Source of the DNA: a virus
Reading direction: 5' to 3' (one strand)
IMG/VR virus record: IMGVR_UViG_3300031231_000003
Span: 32,001 to 96,000 of that record
Length of the DNA stretch: 64,000 nucleotides
Below are positions 31,726 through 63,583 of the stretch, piece by piece. The notes below the pieces were generated by a model that was not told the origin of the DNA, made no database searches, and was given only the letters and a program-made list of their open reading frames with translations. A program made the position numbers and the translations under genes. Every line of letters begins with the position of its first letter. Position 1 is the first letter of the stretch.

Positions 31726-32730
31726 TTGATGTACTTGGGTGTAGAAAAAATCGTAAAGAAGGATTCTTGGAATAGGACATCAACGAAGCACGTTCATAAA
31801 TTTCAATGTGATGAATGCGGTAAATCGTACGACTTGTACAGAAATCGAAAAAGAAGGTTGCATTTTTGTTCTAAGTCATGTAAAAATGCATCAAAATTGC
31901 TTCAAAGGTTGATCACTGATGTTTGCATTGAACGTTATGGTGGAAGAGGTAATGCGTCCATTGAATTGAAATTGAAGAACCAGACGACGTGTCTTAAAAT
32001 TTACGGTGCATCACATCCTTGGAAAAATGACGATGTTCATGAAAAATGCATGGTGACGACAGAAAACTTGCATGGTTCGAGAGGATACTTTGGAACTAAA
32101 AATTACAAGAAAGCGTTGAAAGAAAACTGGAATGTTGATCACCCCATGCATTCAGGCGAGATCAAAGAAAAACATCGTAATACTTGTCTTGCAAATTTGG
32201 GAGTCGAATACCCCTTGCAATCATCGATTTCGATGAAAAAAATGAACGAAACCTGTAATGACAAATTCGGCGTCAAATGGGGATTTCAAATTGAATCTTG
32301 TATTCGTAATTCTCATACGAATGAAGCCCATAAAAAACGACATGAAACGTTAAAAAAGAATGGTTCATACACTAAATCAAGATGGGAAGATCGATTTCAT
32401 GAGTTTCTTTGTTCACGATTTTCAATTGTTGAACGTCAGGTGAGCATGAATCAACGATGGGCGATTGATTTCTATGTTGAACAATTAGATTCTTACGTTC
32501 AATTCGATGGTGTTTATTGGCACGGCCTTGATCGTGACGAGAATGAGATAAAAAACAGCACGAACAAGCGTGATAAAACGATCTTCAAGAAGTTCTTAAC
32601 GGATAAAACTCAAAATGAATGGTTCAAAGAACAGAATTTGAAGTTAGTTAGAATAACCGACAAAGAGTTCATGTCATGTTGGAAGACACAGAATTTTTCC
32701 GGTATTGATTTGAAATTATCAGGAGAATAA
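31726..32730 (+). CDS. Homing endonuclease, Vsr/DUF559-like C-terminus with Zn-ribbon and K..T...YG repeats
   Basis: CDECG, FCSKSC, repeated TC...YG/FG and IDFY..VQFDGVYWHG..D..Q..WF..L.LVRI. Confidence 0.75.
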   Translation: MMYLGVEKIVKKDSWNRTSTKHVHKFQCDECGKSYDLYRNRKRRLHFCSKSCKNASKLLQRLITDVCIERYGGRGNASIELKLKNQTTCLKIYGASHPWKNDDVHEKCMVTTENLHGSRGYFGTKNYKKALKENWNVDHPMHSGEIKEKHRNTCLANLGVEYPLQSSISMKKMNETCNDKFGVKWGFQIESCIRNSHTNEAHKKRHETLKKNGSYTKSRWEDRFHEFLCSRFSIVERQVSMNQRWAIDFYVEQLDSYVQFDGVYWHGLDRDENEIKNSTNKRDKTIFKKFLTDKTQNEWFKEQNLKLVRITDKEFMSCWKTQNFSGIDLKLSGE

Positions 32731-34026: not shown

Positions 34027-35115
34027 ATGCCAAGGTATTTACCCGTAACGAATCAATGTGAAGTTTGTCATAATCCCTTTACAGTAGCGTACCGTTTCCG
34101 TGGTACGAAAACTTGTAACAAGGAATGCTTCAAGAAATTGATGTCTTCGAAAAAGAGGACTGAACGTATCAAGAAACAATGCTTGAACGATAAATGCGGG
34201 AAGATCTTTGATCTAAAGATCACCTACGAGAACATTCAAAAGTACTGCAGTCAAATCTGTTTCTACGATCACAAGTACGGACGAGAATCAGCAATCGTCA
34301 CATTGATCTGTAAATCATGCGGAAATGATTTTGATCGTGTGTTCAGCAAACGTCGACACAGATGTTGTTCAAAAAAATGTTTTAGTGTTCAACAAAGTCT
34401 GGCAATGATGGGTAAAAATAATCCAATGTTTGGTAAAGGACCAATGTTGGGTCGTGTTGCATGGAACAACGGTAAAACAACCGAAACAGACGACAGATTA
34501 AAAAATCTAGGACGTGAAGTTTCACGATCGTTGCAAAGAGGATTTGAATCCGGAAAATTGACTCATGTGGGCGAGAACAATCCGAACTTTGGGCGGACCC
34601 GAGAAACACGTTCAATCGAGAACCTCGAAAACTACAGCAAGGCAGCATCACAACGCGTGATCGATGGAGTCTCTTGCAACAACAAGAATTTCATGCAAGG
34701 AAATTTCTTCAGCAAGAAACAGAACGAAAGTTTCCATTATCGTTCATCGTACGAACTTCGATTGATGCTTTGCTATGAAGTTGATGAAGATATAATTTCG
34801 TACGAACATGAACCGTTCGTGATCAAGTACGACGAAGGCAAACGTTACATACCCGATGTCTTAATATTGAAGAACTCATGTGAAAAAGCTATGATCGTTG
34901 AAGTCAAACCCGAAATGTTCTTGCAGAATTTAGATGTAGTTGAAAAAGCAAACGCGGCTCGCGATTATTGTGACAAAAATGACATGACGTACGAATTCAT
35001 CACATTGAATGACATCGTACGTTACGAGAAAACGTTATCAATAGATTCTGAACGACACAAAAATTTACATGAACAGAATTCAACCTTAAACGGGGGTGTG
35101 AAGTATGCGTCATGA
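34027..35115 (+). CDS. Homing endonuclease-like protein: Zn-ribbon repeats + NUMOD-like motifs + TnsA-N-like PD-(D/E)xK domain
   Basis: CxxC..F..CS..C repeats, GKNNPMFGK, AWN.G and YRSSYE..YEHEP..YIPD..VEVKP. Confidence 0.75.
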   Translation: MPRYLPVTNQCEVCHNPFTVAYRFRGTKTCNKECFKKLMSSKKRTERIKKQCLNDKCGKIFDLKITYENIQKYCSQICFYDHKYGRESAIVTLICKSCGNDFDRVFSKRRHRCCSKKCFSVQQSLAMMGKNNPMFGKGPMLGRVAWNNGKTTETDDRLKNLGREVSRSLQRGFESGKLTHVGENNPNFGRTRETRSIENLENYSKAASQRVIDGVSCNNKNFMQGNFFSKKQNESFHYRSSYELRLMLCYEVDEDIISYEHEPFVIKYDEGKRYIPDVLILKNSCEKAMIVEVKPEMFLQNLDVVEKANAARDYCDKNDMTYEFITLNDIVRYEKTLSIDSERHKNLHEQNSTLNGGVKYAS

Positions 35116-58325: not shown

Positions 58326-59243
58326 GTGATGAACACGCTACGCAATTACGTGAGATTGATCCTTTCCGAGAGGATCAGGGCGAAAGATCCTTCCTCTTCG
58401 TCTTCACGTAAGGCAACGTTCAACATGAACGACTTCAAGAAATTGAAGCAAAATGATCCACTAGAAGGAACGTTTTTGAAGTACGCGAAACGCAACCTTC
58501 AAAGGTTGGGAGAGGGATCATCTCGTGAAGTATTCTTACTTTCATCACAAAAGGTTCTCAAGGTCGCGGTGAACGAAAAAGGTATCGCTCAAAACGAAGC
58601 CGAGATTGATGTTTATACGAATCCCAAGACTCGACCGATCATATCGAAGGTGTACGATTATGGTTCAGGTTACGAATGGCTCGTATCTGAACTAGTTCGT
58701 GAATTGACGTACGAAAAAATCTGCACTTTGTTGGATCTTGATGGTTCTTGGGACTACATGATCAAGGAACTTATCGTTGATAAAATGCCAATTGATAAAC
58801 TTGTCAAGCGATACACGGAAAAAAATTTAAGAGTCAAAGATTCAGGAACTGATGTTCCTGGCTCAGTCGTTGTCGATAAACATGGGAACCACGTAGCAGG
58901 ACCGTTTTTTTCGCCGCCAGGCTGGGAACACGATCGCGGAACGCCCGAAGCATTTAAAGCAATCGATGAAATTAACGTACAAAATCCCAAGTTGAAACAA
59001 TTTCTCATTGCATTGAAACAAACGATGGAAGTGAACGAGCTCGAACGCGGAGACATTCAACCCCAACATTTCGGTAAAAGCGCTTCGGGCGACATCGTGC
59101 TTCTCGATTACGGGTACACGACAACGGTTCTTAAGAATCATTACGGGGGCGGTGATATCAGTTGGGATGATGGTGATGATGACGTTGATCCGTCAAATTC
59201 GATATCTGGTCGTGAAACCACTCGATCACCCGCGGCAAGTTGA
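58326..59243 (+). CDS. Protein kinase-like protein
   Basis: LGEGSSREVF, VLKVA, QNEAE, GDIQPQHFG and LLDYG. Confidence 0.75.
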   Translation: MMNTLRNYVRLILSERIRAKDPSSSSSRKATFNMNDFKKLKQNDPLEGTFLKYAKRNLQRLGEGSSREVFLLSSQKVLKVAVNEKGIAQNEAEIDVYTNPKTRPIISKVYDYGSGYEWLVSELVRELTYEKICTLLDLDGSWDYMIKELIVDKMPIDKLVKRYTEKNLRVKDSGTDVPGSVVVDKHGNHVAGPFFSPPGWEHDRGTPEAFKAIDEINVQNPKLKQFLIALKQTMEVNELERGDIQPQHFGKSASGDIVLLDYGYTTTVLKNHYGGGDISWDDGDDDVDPSNSISGRETTRSPAAS

Positions 59244-59276
59244 ACATCAACAACTTAACGTAATACATTAGAAGTA

Positions 59277-59924
59277 ATGCTCAGATTTGCGACGATTGCG
59301 GACGTTCACATCCGCTCGTTAACACGTCATGATGAGATTCGAGAAGTGTTCAACGCTTTCGTTAAAGACGTGAAGGAACACAACATCGATCACATTTTCA
59401 TTGGTGGCGACATCGGTCACAGTAAAACAGCACAATTTTCGGCTGAGTACGTTGATCTCATGGTTGAGCTGATCAACTTGCTTGGCGATACCGCACCGAC
59501 CCACATGATCTTGGGAAATCACGACCTGAACGAGAGAAACAAGATCAGACAGGATGTGATCACACCCGTTTTAAACGCGGTCAAGCACCCAAACGTGCAT
59601 CTTTACAAGACTAGCGGTGTTTACAGTATCGCAGAAGGTTGCAATTTGTGCGTCTTTAGCATCTTTGACGAGGAGAATTGGAAAAATGTGGAACCCGTAG
59701 AAGGTGACATCAACATCGCTTGTTATCACGGGGGCGTTTCGGGAGCAAGGACTGAAACTGATTGGGAACTCACGGGAGGTCTGGAATTAGATCATTTTGC
59801 TGAATATGATGCAACTTTCCTCGGTGACATCCACAAATTTCAATGGCTGGATCATCGTGATTTTGAAATTGAAATTGACGAGGATGAGTTAAAAGATTAT
59901 CCCGGAGCAATTGTGCTTCCATGA
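59277..59924 (+). CDS. Mre11/SbcD nuclease, N-terminal fragment
   Basis: IADVH, GGD, GNHD, YHG and LGDIH phosphoesterase motifs; lacks the YxGS motif. Confidence 0.9.
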   Translation: MLRFATIADVHIRSLTRHDEIREVFNAFVKDVKEHNIDHIFIGGDIGHSKTAQFSAEYVDLMVELINLLGDTAPTHMILGNHDLNERNKIRQDVITPVLNAVKHPNVHLYKTSGVYSIAEGCNLCVFSIFDEENWKNVEPVEGDINIACYHGGVSGARTETDWELTGGLELDHFAEYDATFLGDIHKFQWLDHRDFEIEIDEDELKDYPGAIVLP

Positions 59925-60139
59925 AATTTAGTGATCTCAGACCGGGAGATATGTACATCACGTCTGGTTCTACCGTTTATCCTCAGCATGAATCAGCAAC
60001 CGTTGTAGCCGTAACTGAGAATCATATAACGTGGTTGATTACGGAAAATAGATTGACAAAGATCTATCGTTTTAAGAATTTCAATGATCAACCTTTCGAT
60101 GAAAAGGGAATCACTTGGTTGAGGGTGAAAAATGTCTAA
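59921..60139 (+). CDS. Small 'PGD'-family protein lying inside the split Mre11
   Basis: MKFSDLRPGDMYI; overlaps both flanking genes. Confidence 0.65.
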   Translation: MKFSDLRPGDMYITSGSTVYPQHESATVVAVTENHITWLITENRLTKIYRFKNFNDQPFDEKGITWLRVKNV

Positions 60140-62705
60140 GAAGATTCGAATTCGTATAAACCGACCGGCGATAGGGTATCCCGGATCGATGCTTCAAAAT
60201 ACCTACTCAGAAGATCTGAAGCATTTTTGGCTGAAATGGGAGTTCAAATCGAGCAACGACTTCACAGTCGTTCCTGTTGAACTTCCGAATCCAAAGCCAT
60301 TTTTGACAATCGATTGGAACGGTTCCGTCAATAAAACGGTCGACCAGTTGAAGAACTTCAAGGCTGGTTCAAGGGTTCGTATCAAGTCTGATGCAAAGAT
60401 CCCACTTAAGTACTCAACGAAGCTCGTTTCAACGATCAAGAACGAGATGGGAGCATCGGAGGTCATCTTCAAGGAAGAACAGGCAACCGACATCTCTCGA
60501 ATCAACATGGGTTCCGTTCAGTTGCTTCGTACGGATCTGAGGAATTCGGACGTATTGTTTCAGCTTTTAAAGGAACATTACAAGTCATCCGAAATGCATG
60601 AGGATGAATGGGTGAAGATCTACGATCTTCTTCGTAAGTACGTCTCGATTCTCACGAGCGAGGATGTGATGAGGAACGTCAAATGGTCATTGAGAAGACT
60701 TCGCTTCAACAACATGTATTCCTATGGCGAAGATAACACGATCAATTTCGATGCATTGTCGGGCCTCGTAGGTATATTCGGGCCAAACAGAAGCGGCAAG
60801 TCTTCAATTCTCGGAACCCTAATGTACGGGTTGTTCAATGCGACCGATAGAGGTCCAATCAAGAACATGTTGCTGTGCAACACTCGTAAGCAATCATGCT
60901 CATCAAAGATCGTGATCAAGCTCGGGGGTCGTGATTACCTCGTTGAGCGTTCAACGAACAAGAAGTCGAACAAGCAGGGTGACATCTCCGCCGCGACGAA
61001 CCTCAGGATTTGGGAACTCATCGATGGAAAACCTGTTGAAAGCACGGGGGAGCAACGTTCAGACACCGAGAAAACGCTGAGAAAGCTCATCGGAACGTCG
61101 GATGATTTTCATTTGATGTCGATATCGACGCAGCGAGATGATAATTCAATCCTCGAACACGGGTCCACGAAAAGACGACAGATCATTTCAAGGTTCCTTG
61201 ACATTGACGTCCTCCAGCAGATCCATGAACTTGCACGTGATGATGTTCGTGAACAAAAAGGTCTCATCAAGAACCTGAACGAGGATTTGAATGAATCAAT
61301 AAACGATAGACGTAACGTGTCATCCAATCTCGATCAACAGATTGAACTCAACGTTTCTAATCTCGAAAGTTCACGTGAAAGGTTGTTCGATCTAAAGACT
61401 CAGCTCGCAGCTTTCAAGGGATTCAAGCATGTTTCGATCGAGGAGCTCGAATCACACCGTGAATCGATCGACGAGTTGAACGGAAAATTATCGAAGGTTG
61501 TTTCAAGCATTGAAAAAGCGGGAAGGGACTTACAAGAAACGGATGAAAAAATAGAACGTGTTTCGACGGTTCTTCAGGATTACGATCTTGTGACGATGAA
61601 GCAACAGCTCGATTCATTCAAGAAGCTGCGTTCAAGCGTCAATTCGATGCTTCAAGCGTACACGAACGAGAACAACTCGTTCGAACGTAGCAAGAAGACG
61701 ATCAAGATCCTGCAAGACGTTCCTTGTGGCGATTCGTTTCCAACGTGTAAGTTCATCAAGGATGCTCATGACCTGAAACCAACGCTGGACGATCAACGTG
61801 ATCGAGTAAATTCTTTGAAACGATCGTACGATGAAGCGAATCAATCGCTCGGCGGTATCGATGAAAAAAAGATGGTCGACAACGTTTCGAAGGTTGAATC
61901 GTTGAAGGAAAAACTGGGACAATTGAAGTTGAACAAGGCTCAGCTCGAAACCCAATTGACAAGGCTCAATCACAACAGGAACGAGATTCAGCGAACTTTG
62001 GACGTTGCGATCAATGAATTCGAGGATCTCGAATCAAGGACCGACAAAAAGAAGAACGATGAACTGACCTCACTTAAATCATTGATCTTTTCTGCCGAAG
62101 CCGGAATATCCGTCTTGGAAAAAGCGAATATCTCTTTGGCAACACAAAAAGGTAAGATTGAATCCGAGATCGAACGTTTGTTGAAGGATCAAAAGAGACG
62201 AATCGATATCCTTCAAAGGATGAAGTACCACGAGGTGATCGAATCCAGCTTTTCAAAGAATGGAATTCAGGATGCGATCCTCTCATCAATGCTTCCTGCG
62301 ATCAATGAAGAGGTTGCAAAGATCCTCAATGGAATCGTGAACTTCACCGTTGAGCTCGAGAAGCTACCGAATGATGATCAAATCGACATCTACATAAACT
62401 ATGGTGATGGTGACAAGAGGGTTCTCGAACTCGGAAGCGGCATGGAAAAGTTCATCAGTTCAATCGTTCTACGAGTTGCATTGAACAACATCTCCACCTT
62501 ACCGAAGAGCGATGTGTTCTTCATCGACGAAGGATTCGGGTCGTTGGATGCGAGCAGCGTGGAGGAGTGTTCAACATTGCTTCAATCTCTGAAGAAGTAC
62601 TTCAAGACGATCATTGTCATCACACACGTTGACGTGATGAAGGACATCGTCGATTCCACGATTGAGATCACACGAAACGGAAAGGACTCACATGTCTCGT
62701 GTTGA
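60132..62705 (+). CDS. Mre11 C-terminal fragment fused to Rad50/SbcC ATPase
   Basis: N-terminal YPGS..Q..E and capping-like domain; GPNRSGKSS, Q-loop, coiled coil, C..FPTC hook-like, SGMEK, FIDEGFG and ITH. Confidence 0.92.
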   Translation: MSKKIRIRINRPAIGYPGSMLQNTYSEDLKHFWLKWEFKSSNDFTVVPVELPNPKPFLTIDWNGSVNKTVDQLKNFKAGSRVRIKSDAKIPLKYSTKLVSTIKNEMGASEVIFKEEQATDISRINMGSVQLLRTDLRNSDVLFQLLKEHYKSSEMHEDEWVKIYDLLRKYVSILTSEDVMRNVKWSLRRLRFNNMYSYGEDNTINFDALSGLVGIFGPNRSGKSSILGTLMYGLFNATDRGPIKNMLLCNTRKQSCSSKIVIKLGGRDYLVERSTNKKSNKQGDISAATNLRIWELIDGKPVESTGEQRSDTEKTLRKLIGTSDDFHLMSISTQRDDNSILEHGSTKRRQIISRFLDIDVLQQIHELARDDVREQKGLIKNLNEDLNESINDRRNVSSNLDQQIELNVSNLESSRERLFDLKTQLAAFKGFKHVSIEELESHRESIDELNGKLSKVVSSIEKAGRDLQETDEKIERVSTVLQDYDLVTMKQQLDSFKKLRSSVNSMLQAYTNENNSFERSKKTIKILQDVPCGDSFPTCKFIKDAHDLKPTLDDQRDRVNSLKRSYDEANQSLGGIDEKKMVDNVSKVESLKEKLGQLKLNKAQLETQLTRLNHNRNEIQRTLDVAINEFEDLESRTDKKKNDELTSLKSLIFSAEAGISVLEKANISLATQKGKIESEIERLLKDQKRRIDILQRMKYHEVIESSFSKNGIQDAILSSMLPAINEEVAKILNGIVNFTVELEKLPNDDQIDIYINYGDGDKRVLELGSGMEKFISSIVLRVALNNISTLPKSDVFFIDEGFGSLDASSVEECSTLLQSLKKYFKTIIVITHVDVMKDIVDSTIEITRNGKDSHVSC

Positions 62706-62997
62706 CAAGTTCGAACCGTACCTGAACGATAGATTGATCCTCAAGAAGGAAAATTACGTTTTGATCAAACCGAATCGTGAATCGAGGTTGATTCCACTCG
62801 GTTGTTCGGTATGTGAATTCTTATACAGGACTCACAACGATGAGAAGGCACACGAAACGTACGGGTGTTGTCACAGATGTGCTGAGGTGTTCGTGTACCC
62901 TGATCGAAAACGATGGTCAAAAGGATGGCGACCGAATGAAGATCAGATCAAAAGAGACGTCGAATCACGACAATCTTTATCGATCATGATGAAGTAA
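62662..62997 (+). CDS. Cys-rich hypothetical protein (Zn finger)
   Basis: CSVC..GCCHRC..W..GWRP. Confidence 0.65.
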   Translation: MRSHETERTHMSRVDKFEPYLNDRLILKKENYVLIKPNRESRLIPLGCSVCEFLYRTHNDEKAHETYGCCHRCAEVFVYPDRKRWSKGWRPNEDQIKRDVESRQSLSIMMK

Positions 62998-62998
62998 A

Positions 62999-63583
62999 AT
63001 GCGTAATTACGATTGGTTCAAAAAAACTTACGATTATATCGTTTACGATGTTCGAAATAACTTGCTGATTGCGGATTTCGAAGTTCATCATATTTTGCCG
63101 CGCTCTTTGGGTGGTTTGGATTCTCTCGAAAACAGAGTTAGATTAACGTATCGTCAACATTTCATTTGTCATTGGTTACTTTGGAAAATGTCGACCGGGA
63201 AAGATCGTGAAAAGATGGCACTTGCGTTCAAGTTCATGAAAGAAGGCCAACAAGGAAAATTTGTTGTATTGAATTCAATAACGTTCGCCAGAGTGAAGAA
63301 GGAAGCTTCACTTTTTCAGAGCAATCGACAAATTGGGATTAAAAAGCCGTATTTGAATGGAAATCAATTCGCAAGACACAAGCATACTCCCGAACAAAAT
63401 TTGAGAAAAAGTAAACGTCAAATTGGTGGTAAAAGAAAACCCGAAACGATTGAGAGGATGAAAATTGCACAAAGTAAATCCGAAACTAAAAATCAAATTA
63501 GAGAACAATTGAAACGATATTGGGCAAAATGGCGCGTAGATAACAATCGTAAACCTCGTATCGGTGATGAAAAATATTTATGA
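62999..63583 (+). CDS. HNH homing endonuclease with NUMOD3
   Basis: EVHHILPRSLGG.D..N.V.LTYRQHFICHWLL; KHTPE and RKPETIERMK. Confidence 0.85.
   Translation: MRNYDWFKKTYDYIVYDVRNNLLIADFEVHHILPRSLGGLDSLENRVRLTYRQHFICHWLLWKMSTGKDREKMALAFKFMKEGQQGKFVVLNSITFARVKKEASLFQSNRQIGIKKPYLNGNQFARHKHTPEQNLRKSKRQIGGKRKPETIERMKIAQSKSETKNQIREQLKRYWAKWRVDNNRKPRIGDEKYL

What the first reader, a model, noticed from the sequence alone, without database searches (positions are those of the whole stretch)
59277..62705. Mre11 nuclease split without an intein, with charge-complementary ends; second half fused to Rad50
Seen: the phosphoesterase gene ends after LGDIHKFQ with an added acidic tail (DFEIEIDEDELKDYPGAIVLP). 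The missing YPGS motif and capping region begin the next-but-one gene, behind a basic, alternating beta-like head (MSKKIRIRINR), and run straight into a Rad50/SbcC ATPase. All three genes overlap at start/stop. Known: in SbcD/Mre11, YxGS follows GHxH within roughly 10 residues of the same chain, and described 'fractured' phage genes use split inteins or flank a HEG. Here there are no intein Cys/His-Asn motifs and the spacer gene is not a nuclease. Inference: the halves reassemble through an electrostatic beta-zipper (FEIEID with KIRIRI), an intein-free way to split an enzyme.
Basis: partly seen in the sequence, partly recalled or inferred. Interest (0 to 1): 0.85.

Follow-up and report, generated by a model that had tools for sequence, protein, structure and literature searches.

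The report
Split phage Mre11-Rad50 with clasp tails
A phage DNA-repair gene that is normally one long Mre11-Rad50 chain is here made as two proteins whose extra acidic and basic ends probably clip them back together; this kind of split was already noted in 2009, so it is a well-supported example, not a new mechanism.

Summary
Three overlapping ORFs lie at 59277-62705: an Mre11/SbcD N-part (215 aa), a 72-aa ORF, and an 857-aa protein carrying the rest of Mre11 joined to Rad50/SbcC.

In relatives this is normally one chain of about 1050 aa: 161 of 185 places examined. The split form is nonetheless widespread. 100 of 110 near-length protein clusters end in the same acidic tail, and all 20 split downstream halves start with a basic head.

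Tail and head together form a small inserted fold. In the natural unsplit relative L110, AlphaFold2 models it as strand-helix-strand-turn-strand, and the split falls in that turn. A complex prediction places tail and head in the interface (0.88; best control 0.00).

Two relatives carry a Vsr-like homing endonuclease at the same site. The window instead carries an orphan 72-aa ORF of low G+C.

No intron, intein or joined form was found.

Dassa et al. 2009 described such an intein-less SbcD split with extra ends. Crona et al. 2011 showed the tail principle for NrdA. This scan had already found the same arrangement on other DNA.

Verdict: new member of a known kind.

The parts
59277..59924 (+). 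p1: N-terminal part of the Mre11/SbcD nuclease domain (215 aa). It carries motifs I-V: DVH at residue 9, GDIGH at 44, GNHD at 80, H151, GDIH at 183.
   Evidence: Aligns to residues 20-222 of the single-chain Mel-JY01 protein.
59823..59834 (+). Motif V (G-D-I-H, residues 183-186), the last ancestral nuclease motif before the break.
   Evidence: Invariant in 98 of 98 aligned split p1 proteins.
59862..59921 (+). Acidic tail (residues 196-215, FEIEIDEDELKDYPGAIVLP). By homology to the L110 model it forms the extended strand, a short helix and a second strand. It is absent from ordinary unsplit relatives.
   Evidence: Residues 182-205, 208 and 210-214 touch p3 in the complex prediction.
59921..60139 (+). 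ORF72: orphan 72-aa ORF in the gap, where some relatives hold a homing endonuclease gene. Predicted all-beta. G+C is 0.379 against 0.45 in the flanks.
60132..60164 (+). Basic head of p3 (residues 1-11, MSKKIRIRINR), preceded by a GAGG Shine-Dalgarno-like motif.
   Evidence: Residues 2-21 touch p1 in the complex prediction.
60177..60188 (+). True Mre11 motif VI (Y-P-G-S, residues 16-19 of p3).
   Evidence: Aligns to YPGS at residues 217-220 of the single-chain Mel-JY01 protein. Y16, P17 and G18 are conserved in A2.
60165..60695 (+). Rest of the Mre11 nuclease core, the capping domain and the helical linker (p3 residues 12-188).
   Evidence: The AlphaFold2 model of relative L110 residues 1-400 matches Mre11/SbcD structures 3qg5, 3tho, 4m0v and 6s6v.
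60696..62705 (+). Rad50/SbcC ATPase part. Walker A GPNRSGKS at residue 217, Cys pair CGDSFPTC at 532, signature-like SGME at 769, Walker B VFFIDE at 795, ITH at 830.

Best explanation
This is a 'fractured' single-chain Mre11-Rad50 (SbcD-SbcC) gene of a phage.

The ancestral gene of about 1050 codons was broken in the beta-hairpin between nuclease motif V (GDIH) and motif VI (YPGS). This site is used by a Vsr-like homing endonuclease cassette in relatives.

The two halves are translated separately. p3 has its own ATG and a GAGG motif, and in most relatives its start overlaps p1's stop. The halves then reassemble without covalent joining into one nuclease domain. p1 supplies all the metal-binding motifs. 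p3 supplies the last core strands, the capping domain and Rad50.

An inserted mini-domain straddles the break. It consists of the acidic tail of p1 (long strand, short helix, second strand) and the basic head of p3 (long strand). It is inferred to act as a clasp, with hydrophobic positions alternating with Glu/Asp-Arg/Lys pairs.

In this window the endonuclease gene is absent. The gap holds an orphan 72-aa ORF of unknown role.

Shown: the ORFs, the normal single-chain state, the conservation of tail and head, and the endonuclease at the same site in relatives.
Inferred: non-covalent assembly, the role of the clasp and the strand register.
For: 1. One chain is the norm. 161 of 185 places examined have both parts in one ORF, 19 are split (window included), 2 are split with the downstream part off the contig, and 3 are undetermined. 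Mel-JY01's 1066-aa protein aligns to p1 over residues 20-222 and to p3 over 215-1059.

2. The split form is under selection. 100 of 110 near-length clusters end in the long tail. Tail columns are conserved. 20 of 20 heads are basic. Both halves keep their motifs.

3. The junctions look like separate, coupled translation. Among the 16 distinct split p3 starts listed, p3's start lies -7 to +25 nt from the end of p1's stop in the 14 without a spacer.

4. Structure. Natural unsplit relatives carry tail and head in one chain (L110, L156, L162; P0077 is cut at its end). AlphaFold2 on L110 residues 1-400 gave mean pLDDT 93.3 with E188-200, H201-206, E211-217 and E220-232. The split point corresponds to the 218-219 turn. 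The fold matches Mre11/SbcD (E about 1e-11 to 1e-12).

5. Complex prediction of p1 with p3 residues 1-190. Score 0.88 in 3 of 3 runs, best of 3 controls 0.00. That mark was reached by 58 of 80 solved complexes and 2 of 110 mismatched pairs. The runs agree in at least 82% of contacts, and partner pLDDT is at least 74. The interface includes p1 residues 182-205, 208, 210-214 and p3 residues 2-21. Halves of one domain can pass by likeness to solved Mre11 structures.

6. Register. The contact Q189-Y16 sets an antiparallel register. It puts E197 opposite R8, E199 opposite R6 and D201 opposite K4, with F196/I9, I198/I7 and I200/I5 between. Under this register position 8 is acid-base in 13 of 14 long-clasp split rows and also in the split L141, whose short tail ends there; it is E-N in the unsplit L110 and blank in L167. 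It is swapped to R-D and R-E in the unsplit L156 and L162 (19 rows in all).

7. Endonuclease at the site. L002 (289 aa) and L141 (298 aa) hold homologous ORFs in the gap (32% identity, E 4e-48). Both hit phrog_559 and phrog_3339, annotated 'HNH endonuclease' and 'homing endonuclease'.

8. No rival route to one chain. No intron family matched and no Pfam intein/Hint hit appeared at E up to 1. Contigs of 4 runs are identical and show no joints.
Against: - L141 and L167 are split at the same place with only 3-5 extra residues on each side. A long clasp is therefore not always needed.
- For NrdA, the tails were not needed for heterodimer formation, only for activity and higher assembly (Crona 2011, Discussion). 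The role of these tails may likewise differ from simple clipping.
- The complex prediction mostly reflects a large core interface (p1 residues 1-11 with p3 residues 31-44) that any split of one domain would show.
- No coordinates were available, so the strand order and the Glu-Arg pairs are inferred.
- The compensatory swap is a single event in two sister sequences.
- No expression or protein data exist. The RNA-labelled runs hold an 81.8-kb contig and need not reflect RNA.
- ORF72's role is unknown.
Confidence: 0.75

Rival explanations
1. The halves assemble through the large core interface of the split nuclease domain alone. The tail and head are cassette-derived leftovers, or they serve another purpose such as dimerisation of Mre11, contact with Rad50 or control of the nuclease.
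For: - L141 and L167 are split without the long tail and head.
- The same mini-domain exists in unsplit chains (L110, L156, L162), so it does not exist only to mend a break.
- NrdA tails were not needed for the heterodimer.
- The core contacts have the lowest predicted error.
Against: - The opposite charges are kept in split forms (96 of 98 tails acidic, 20 of 20 heads basic). They are relaxed or swapped in the unsplit L156 and L162.
- Tail and head lie in the predicted interface.
Confidence: 0.15
2. One chain is restored from the RNA or during translation, by an intron, by ribosomal bypass of the ORF72 region, or by frameshifting.
For: p1 and p3 are in the same frame in the window.
Against: - Eight in-frame stops lie between them over 207 nt.
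- No intron family matched; only three chance-level small-RNA hits with E 0.75-9.6.
- Relatives have other frames and no spacer at all.
- No joints were seen in contigs of 4 runs.
- p3 has its own ATG and a GAGG motif.
Confidence: 0.03
3. The locus is a decaying, non-functional gene broken by an insertion.
For: ORF72 has no relatives. The window carries several selfish endonuclease genes.
Against: - Both halves are full length with all motifs.
- The same split is kept in 100 of 110 clusters at about 53% mean identity, with conserved tails.
Confidence: 0.03

Closest known systems
Intein-less 'SbcD-like' fractured gene from Lake Gatun GOS data (Dassa, London, Stoddard, Pietrokovski et al. 2009, Nucleic Acids Res 37:2560, PMC2677866; passages read)
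   Same: - Two ORFs matching the N- and C-halves of an SbcD-like nuclease, with no split intein.
- Extra residues at the break (25 C-terminal, 9 N-terminal) between consecutive conserved motifs.
- Overlapping coding regions.
- The Vsr-like endonuclease of that locus corresponds in kind to the gap ORFs of L002 and L141.
   Different: - The window has no endonuclease in the gap; it has an orphan 72-aa ORF.
- The paper reports one locus and proposes no function or structure for the extra residues.
- Its Supplementary Figure S2 could not be seen, so identity of the sequences is unconfirmed.
Aeh1 phage NrdA split by mobE (Crona et al. 2011, Nucleic Acids Res 39:1381, PMC3045599; abstract and Discussion read)
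   Same: - An essential enzyme is fragmented by a free-standing homing endonuclease.
- New, oppositely charged tails at the break are essential for activity.
- The authors propose this as a general antidote to fragmentation, distinct from RNA or protein splicing.
   Different: - Different enzyme and endonuclease (HNH-type mobE).
- Charge polarity is reversed (basic C-tail, acidic N-tail).
- Those tails promote dimerisation of heterodimers rather than heterodimer formation.
- That case was shown experimentally; this one is only predicted.
Mre11/Rad50 (SbcD/SbcC) fusion proteins (Yoshida, Claverie, Ogata 2011, Virol J 8:427, PMC3175470; passages read)
   Same: A single chain with Mre11 then Rad50, abundant in aquatic viral metagenomes, often on scaffolds with phage primases. 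A primase-like gene sits upstream here too.
   Different: The word 'split' occurs 0 times in that paper's main text. Here the fusion has been broken again, inside the nuclease domain and not at the Mre11/Rad50 boundary.
Naturally split inteins in fractured phage genes (Dassa et al. 2009, same paper)
   Same: Two halves are brought together by antiparallel strands with salt bridges (figure legend seen). The endonuclease gene lies between the halves.
   Different: - There is no splicing chemistry here. The tail has no Cys/Ser start, the head has no His-Asn end, and Pfam gives no intein hit.
- The product stays as two chains.

Membership tests
Mre11/SbcD nuclease (calcineurin-like phosphoesterase) | Phosphoesterase motifs I-V with the metal-binding residues | tested here: met
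   DVH at 9, GDIGH at 44, GNHD at 80, H151 and GDIH at 183, all in p1. Pfam PF00149 scores 41.1 bits against a cutoff of 21.5. That these are the metal ligands is recalled knowledge of Mre11.
Mre11/SbcD nuclease (calcineurin-like phosphoesterase) | Motif VI and a capping domain completing the fold | tested here: met
   YPGS sits at p3 residues 16-19 and aligns to the single-chain relative. The model of relative L110 matches the Mre11/SbcD nuclease plus capping domains. This was tested on a relative, not on the window's own chains.
Mre11/SbcD nuclease (calcineurin-like phosphoesterase) | Nuclease activity | not testable with these tools
   Needs an enzyme assay.
Rad50/SbcC ABC ATPase | Walker A, signature, Walker B and H-loop separated by a long coiled coil with a Cys hook | tested here: met
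   Motifs found at residues 217, 769, 795 and 830, with a Cys pair at 532. AAA_23 E 8.6e-11. SMC_N scores 32.3 bits, below its cutoff of 40. phrog_77 E 7.4e-54.
Endonuclease-fractured, intein-less gene with assembly tails (Dassa 2009 / Crona 2011 kind) | The gene is contiguous in relatives and broken here, with both halves intact | tested here: met
   161 of 185 places are unsplit. Both halves are full length with their motifs.
Endonuclease-fractured, intein-less gene with assembly tails (Dassa 2009 / Crona 2011 kind) | Extra residues at the break that unsplit homologues lack | tested here: met
   Of 159 unsplit loci scored, 137 have a motif V to motif VI spacing of 10-15, 20 have 19-23 (one of these, L162, is mis-scored and is really an insert form) and 2 have 45-46. 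The window has about 20 extra tail residues and about 10 extra head residues.
Endonuclease-fractured, intein-less gene with assembly tails (Dassa 2009 / Crona 2011 kind) | A free-standing homing endonuclease gene between the halves | tested here: not met
   The window's gap holds ORF72 with no nuclease signal. The feature is met in relatives L002/L003 and L141. Most split relatives have an empty gap. The window is read as a descendant state.
Endonuclease-fractured, intein-less gene with assembly tails (Dassa 2009 / Crona 2011 kind) | The tails are required for assembly or activity | not testable with these tools
   Only predictions are available. Deletion mutants are needed.
Split intein | N-intein starting with Cys/Ser, C-intein ending in His-Asn before Cys/Ser/Thr, and a Hint fold | tested here: not met
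   The tail and head sequences lack these residues. No Hint or intein family appears in Pfam at E up to 1.
Group I or II intron | A match to an intron covariance model, and a spliced form in reads | tested here: not met
   No intron match in 59000-61000 at E up to 10. No joints in 4 runs. These are contigs only, so rare spliced forms could be missed.

The most novel reading that the evidence does not exclude
The tail-plus-head unit may be a self-contained, portable split mini-domain: two strands and a helix from one chain clamping a strand from the other. It would travel with, or be exploited by, a homing-endonuclease cassette and would be enough to hold protein fragments together without splicing. 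The split state has changed several times on the gene tree (at least 4; one clade rejected, p-AU 4.5e-07). This would fit a cassette that moves its own 'antidote'. If so, it is a natural, intein-free split-protein tag. The window's ORF72 would be new cargo that replaced the endonuclease.
Probability: 0.3. Interest if true: 0.6.

Novelty: new member of a known kind. Interest (0 to 1): 0.35.

Why it matters
The locus shows that a gene broken by a selfish element can persist for a long time as two genes. The split form spans about 100 protein clusters at roughly 50% identity.

It also offers a concrete, testable structural picture of how the pieces may be held together. That picture is missing from the 2009 report of this locus type.

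The natural series found here covers every stage: unsplit; unsplit with the insert; split with an endonuclease; split with an empty gap; split with other cargo; and split without the long clasp. This is good material for testing the tail hypothesis that was shown experimentally only for NrdA.

It does not reveal a new principle.

Tried and rejected
- Intron: the Rfam scan of 59000-61000 at E up to 10 gave only three chance-level small-RNA hits.
- ORF72 relatives: none in IMG/VR. Among 1.84 billion representatives only itself and P0127 were found. P0127 is an RTX-type calcium-binding repeat protein. Its short repeated match I take as chance summed over repeats.
- ORF72 in the protein atlas: scores of 0.89 or less and mixed structural neighbours. 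These are leads only.
- ORF72 fold: AlphaFold2 without an alignment gave pLDDT 72.9 for the best model (the other four 47-60), all-beta. Foldseek against PDB gave nothing better than E 0.23.
- ORF72 against other gap ORFs: no similarity to the 69-aa gap ORF of L141 or to the gap endonucleases.
- Promoter and terminator scan of 59000-60500: no more sites than in shuffles.
- Phage GenBank records: only 2 records matched p1 and none matched the p3 head region.
- Reads: read laying used contigs of RNA-labelled runs. X1 may be the window's own source (an 81.8-kb contig). None of this shows transcription. Parts without cover in X2-X4 mean nothing.
- One origin of the split: not excluded on the first tree. 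It was rejected for the 12 long-clasp rows on the 47-row quick tree, but the group was named after trees had been seen. Repeated gain and repeated re-fusion could not be told apart.
- Reading the single in-frame TAG of L011 through, to fold a joined chain: considered and not done. Nothing suggested that this phage reads TAG as a residue.
Full report
**What is there.**
The window is part of a 124-kb virus record. At 59277-62705 three ORFs on the + strand overlap at their ends.
- p1 (59277-59924, 215 aa) is a calcineurin-like phosphoesterase of the SbcD/Mre11 type: Pfam PF00149 E 3.4e-10, phrog_100 E 3.2e-20. It holds motifs I-V and ends, after GDIH, in an acidic tail.
- ORF72 (59921-60139) has no family.
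- p3 (60132-62705, 857 aa) begins with a basic head. It continues with the true YPGS motif and the remainder of Mre11, and from about residue 189 it is a Rad50/SbcC ATPase.

p1 and p3 share a frame here, but 8 stops lie between them.

**The normal state is one chain.**
Microcystis phage Mel-JY01 has, behind a primase-like gene as in the window, a single 1066-aa ORF. It aligns to p1 over its residues 20-222 and to p3 over 215-1059.

Scans of IMG/VR and of metagenome contigs gave 184 loci. With the window, that makes 185 places:
- 161 have both parts in one ORF.
- 19 are split.
- 2 are split with the downstream half off the contig.
- 3 could not be judged.

In 137 of 159 unsplit loci scored, motif V and motif VI are 10-15 residues apart. 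Mre11/Rad50 fusions in aquatic viral metagenomes are published (Yoshida et al. 2011, passages read).

**The split form is common and conserved.**
A length-restricted search with p1 found 110 clusters. Of these, 100 end soon after motif V in a tail of the form xE(I/L)x(I/V)DExDLxxYPxAE(V/I)(I/V), as counted.

In the alignment of 98 such proteins (mean identity 53%) the tail columns are among the best kept: E197 87, I/V200 98, D/E204 95, L205 93 and Y208 92 of 98. The tail is acidic in 96 of 98.

All 20 split downstream halves seen begin M(S)KK(I/V)(K/R)(I/V)(R/K), with net charge +3 to +8.

Without a spacer gene, p3's start lies -7 to +25 nt from the end of p1's stop, most often as (A/G)TGA.

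**What sits in the gap.**
- Most split relatives have nothing there.
- L002/L003 have a 289-aa ORF.
- L141 has a 69-aa ORF plus a 298-aa ORF.

The two large gap ORFs are homologous (32% identity, E 4e-48). They hit PHROG families annotated as HNH or homing endonucleases (phrog_559, phrog_3339). They have weak PD-(D/E)XK-type Pfam hits.

The window's ORF72 has no relatives and no convincing structural match. It has low G+C (0.379 against 0.45 in the flanks), similar to the HNH-type endonuclease gene just downstream (0.364).

**Structure.**
Some natural unsplit proteins carry tail and head in one chain: L110, L156 and L162, plus P0077, which is cut at its end.

AlphaFold2 on L110 residues 1-400, with an 80-row alignment, gave mean pLDDT 93.3. 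The insert was modelled as strand 188-200, helix 201-206, strand 211-217, a two-residue turn, and strand 220-232. The whole model matches Mre11/SbcD structures. The split point of all split forms corresponds to that turn.

The complex prediction for the window's p1 and p3 residues 1-190 scored 0.88 in each of three runs. The best of three controls scored 0.00. That mark was reached by 58 of 80 solved complexes and 2 of 110 mismatched pairs. Contact agreement was at least 82% and partner pLDDT at least 74. My own alignments were used, so these counts hold only roughly.

The tail (182-205, 208, 210-214) and the head (2-21) lie in the interface, together with a large core interface. Because these are two halves of a known fold, the pass may reflect likeness to solved Mre11 structures.

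The reported contact Q189-Y16 fixes an antiparallel register. In it, hydrophobic pairs alternate with Glu/Asp-Arg/Lys pairs. Position 8 is acid-base in 13 of 14 long-clasp split rows and in the short-tailed L141. It is E-N in the unsplit L110, blank in L167, and swapped to R-D and R-E in the unsplit L156 and L162 (19 rows).

The strand order (head strand between two tail strands) is my inference. No coordinates were available.

**Evolution.**
All split rows with the long clasp fall in one well-supported clade together with unsplit rows. Holding the 12 long-clasp rows as one clade is rejected (lnL difference 333, p-AU 4.5e-07; quick tree; group named after trees were seen). At least 4 changes of state are needed.

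I could not tell repeated cassette transfer from repeated re-fusion.

L141 and L167 are split at the same site with only a few extra residues. This suggests an independent invasion and shows that a long clasp is not always present.

**Rival routes to one chain.**
None is supported:
- No intron model matches.
- No intein signal is present.
- No joints appear in contigs of four runs that carry identical sequence. Two of those contigs bridge the ORF72/p3 junction.

Those runs are labelled RNA but are contigs, one of them 81.8 kb long. They do not show transcription.

**Comparison with what is known.**
- Dassa et al. 2009 (passages read) reported one Lake Gatun locus with the two halves of an SbcD-like gene, a Vsr-like endonuclease between them and no intein. 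It had 25 extra C-terminal and 9 extra N-terminal residues between consecutive conserved motifs. This is the arrangement seen here.
- Crona et al. 2011 (abstract and Discussion read) showed for Aeh1 NrdA that oppositely charged tails created by the endonuclease insertion are essential. They predicted the same for other fragmented genes.
- Earlier notes of this scan (read after my own reading was formed) describe the same split on other genomes, with endonuclease, glycosyltransferase or empty gaps.

- Its gap cargo is an orphan ORF.
- It gives a count of how widespread and conserved the tail and head are.
- It identifies natural unsplit carriers of the mini-domain.
- It identifies split forms without the long clasp.

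**Verdict.**
This is a new member of a known kind, of moderate to low interest.

Noticed in passing
window 62999-63583 (+), with 62662-62997 (+): An HNH-type homing endonuclease-like ORF (phrog_655 E 1.8e-30; weak Pfam HNH; G+C 0.364) lies directly downstream of p3. Before it is a 111-aa Cys-rich ORF that overlaps the end of p3.
   Followed up: partly
window 31726-32730 (+) and 34027-35115 (+): A 334-aa ORF is related to the Vsr-like gap endonucleases of L141 and L002 (tblastn E 5e-08 and 9e-06). It sits between two large ORFs. A second ORF has similar Cys-rich N-terminal repeats. The window therefore carries this endonuclease family elsewhere, but not in the Mre11 gap.
   Followed up: partly
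L049 4974-9290: An unsplit Mre11-Rad50 ORF of 1439 aa has about 330 extra in-frame residues just after the Walker A region of the Rad50 part. The p3 alignment breaks at residues 229/224. This could be an intein but was not examined.
   Followed up: no
L141 4597-4806: A 69-aa ORF with no family lies between p1 and the gap endonuclease. It is unrelated to the window's ORF72.
   Followed up: partly
L019 (5001-6200), L087, L112-L128 and others: These unsplit relatives have intermediate motif V to motif VI spacings (19-23 residues), often ending in KKPW. Some are nested among split forms (L087 beside L086). They may be re-fusions after loss of the clasp.
   Followed up: partly
window 61725-61748 (p3 residues 532-539): The coiled-coil apex has a conserved P-C-G-D-x-F-P-x-C pair of cysteines instead of the CxxC zinc hook that I recall for Rad50. 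The comparison is recalled, not tested.
   Followed up: no
window 58900-61000 in runs X1-X4: Libraries labelled metatranscriptomic hold this phage as long contigs (81.8 kb in X1) with identical sequence. They probably contain viral DNA, or X1 is the source sample.
   Followed up: no
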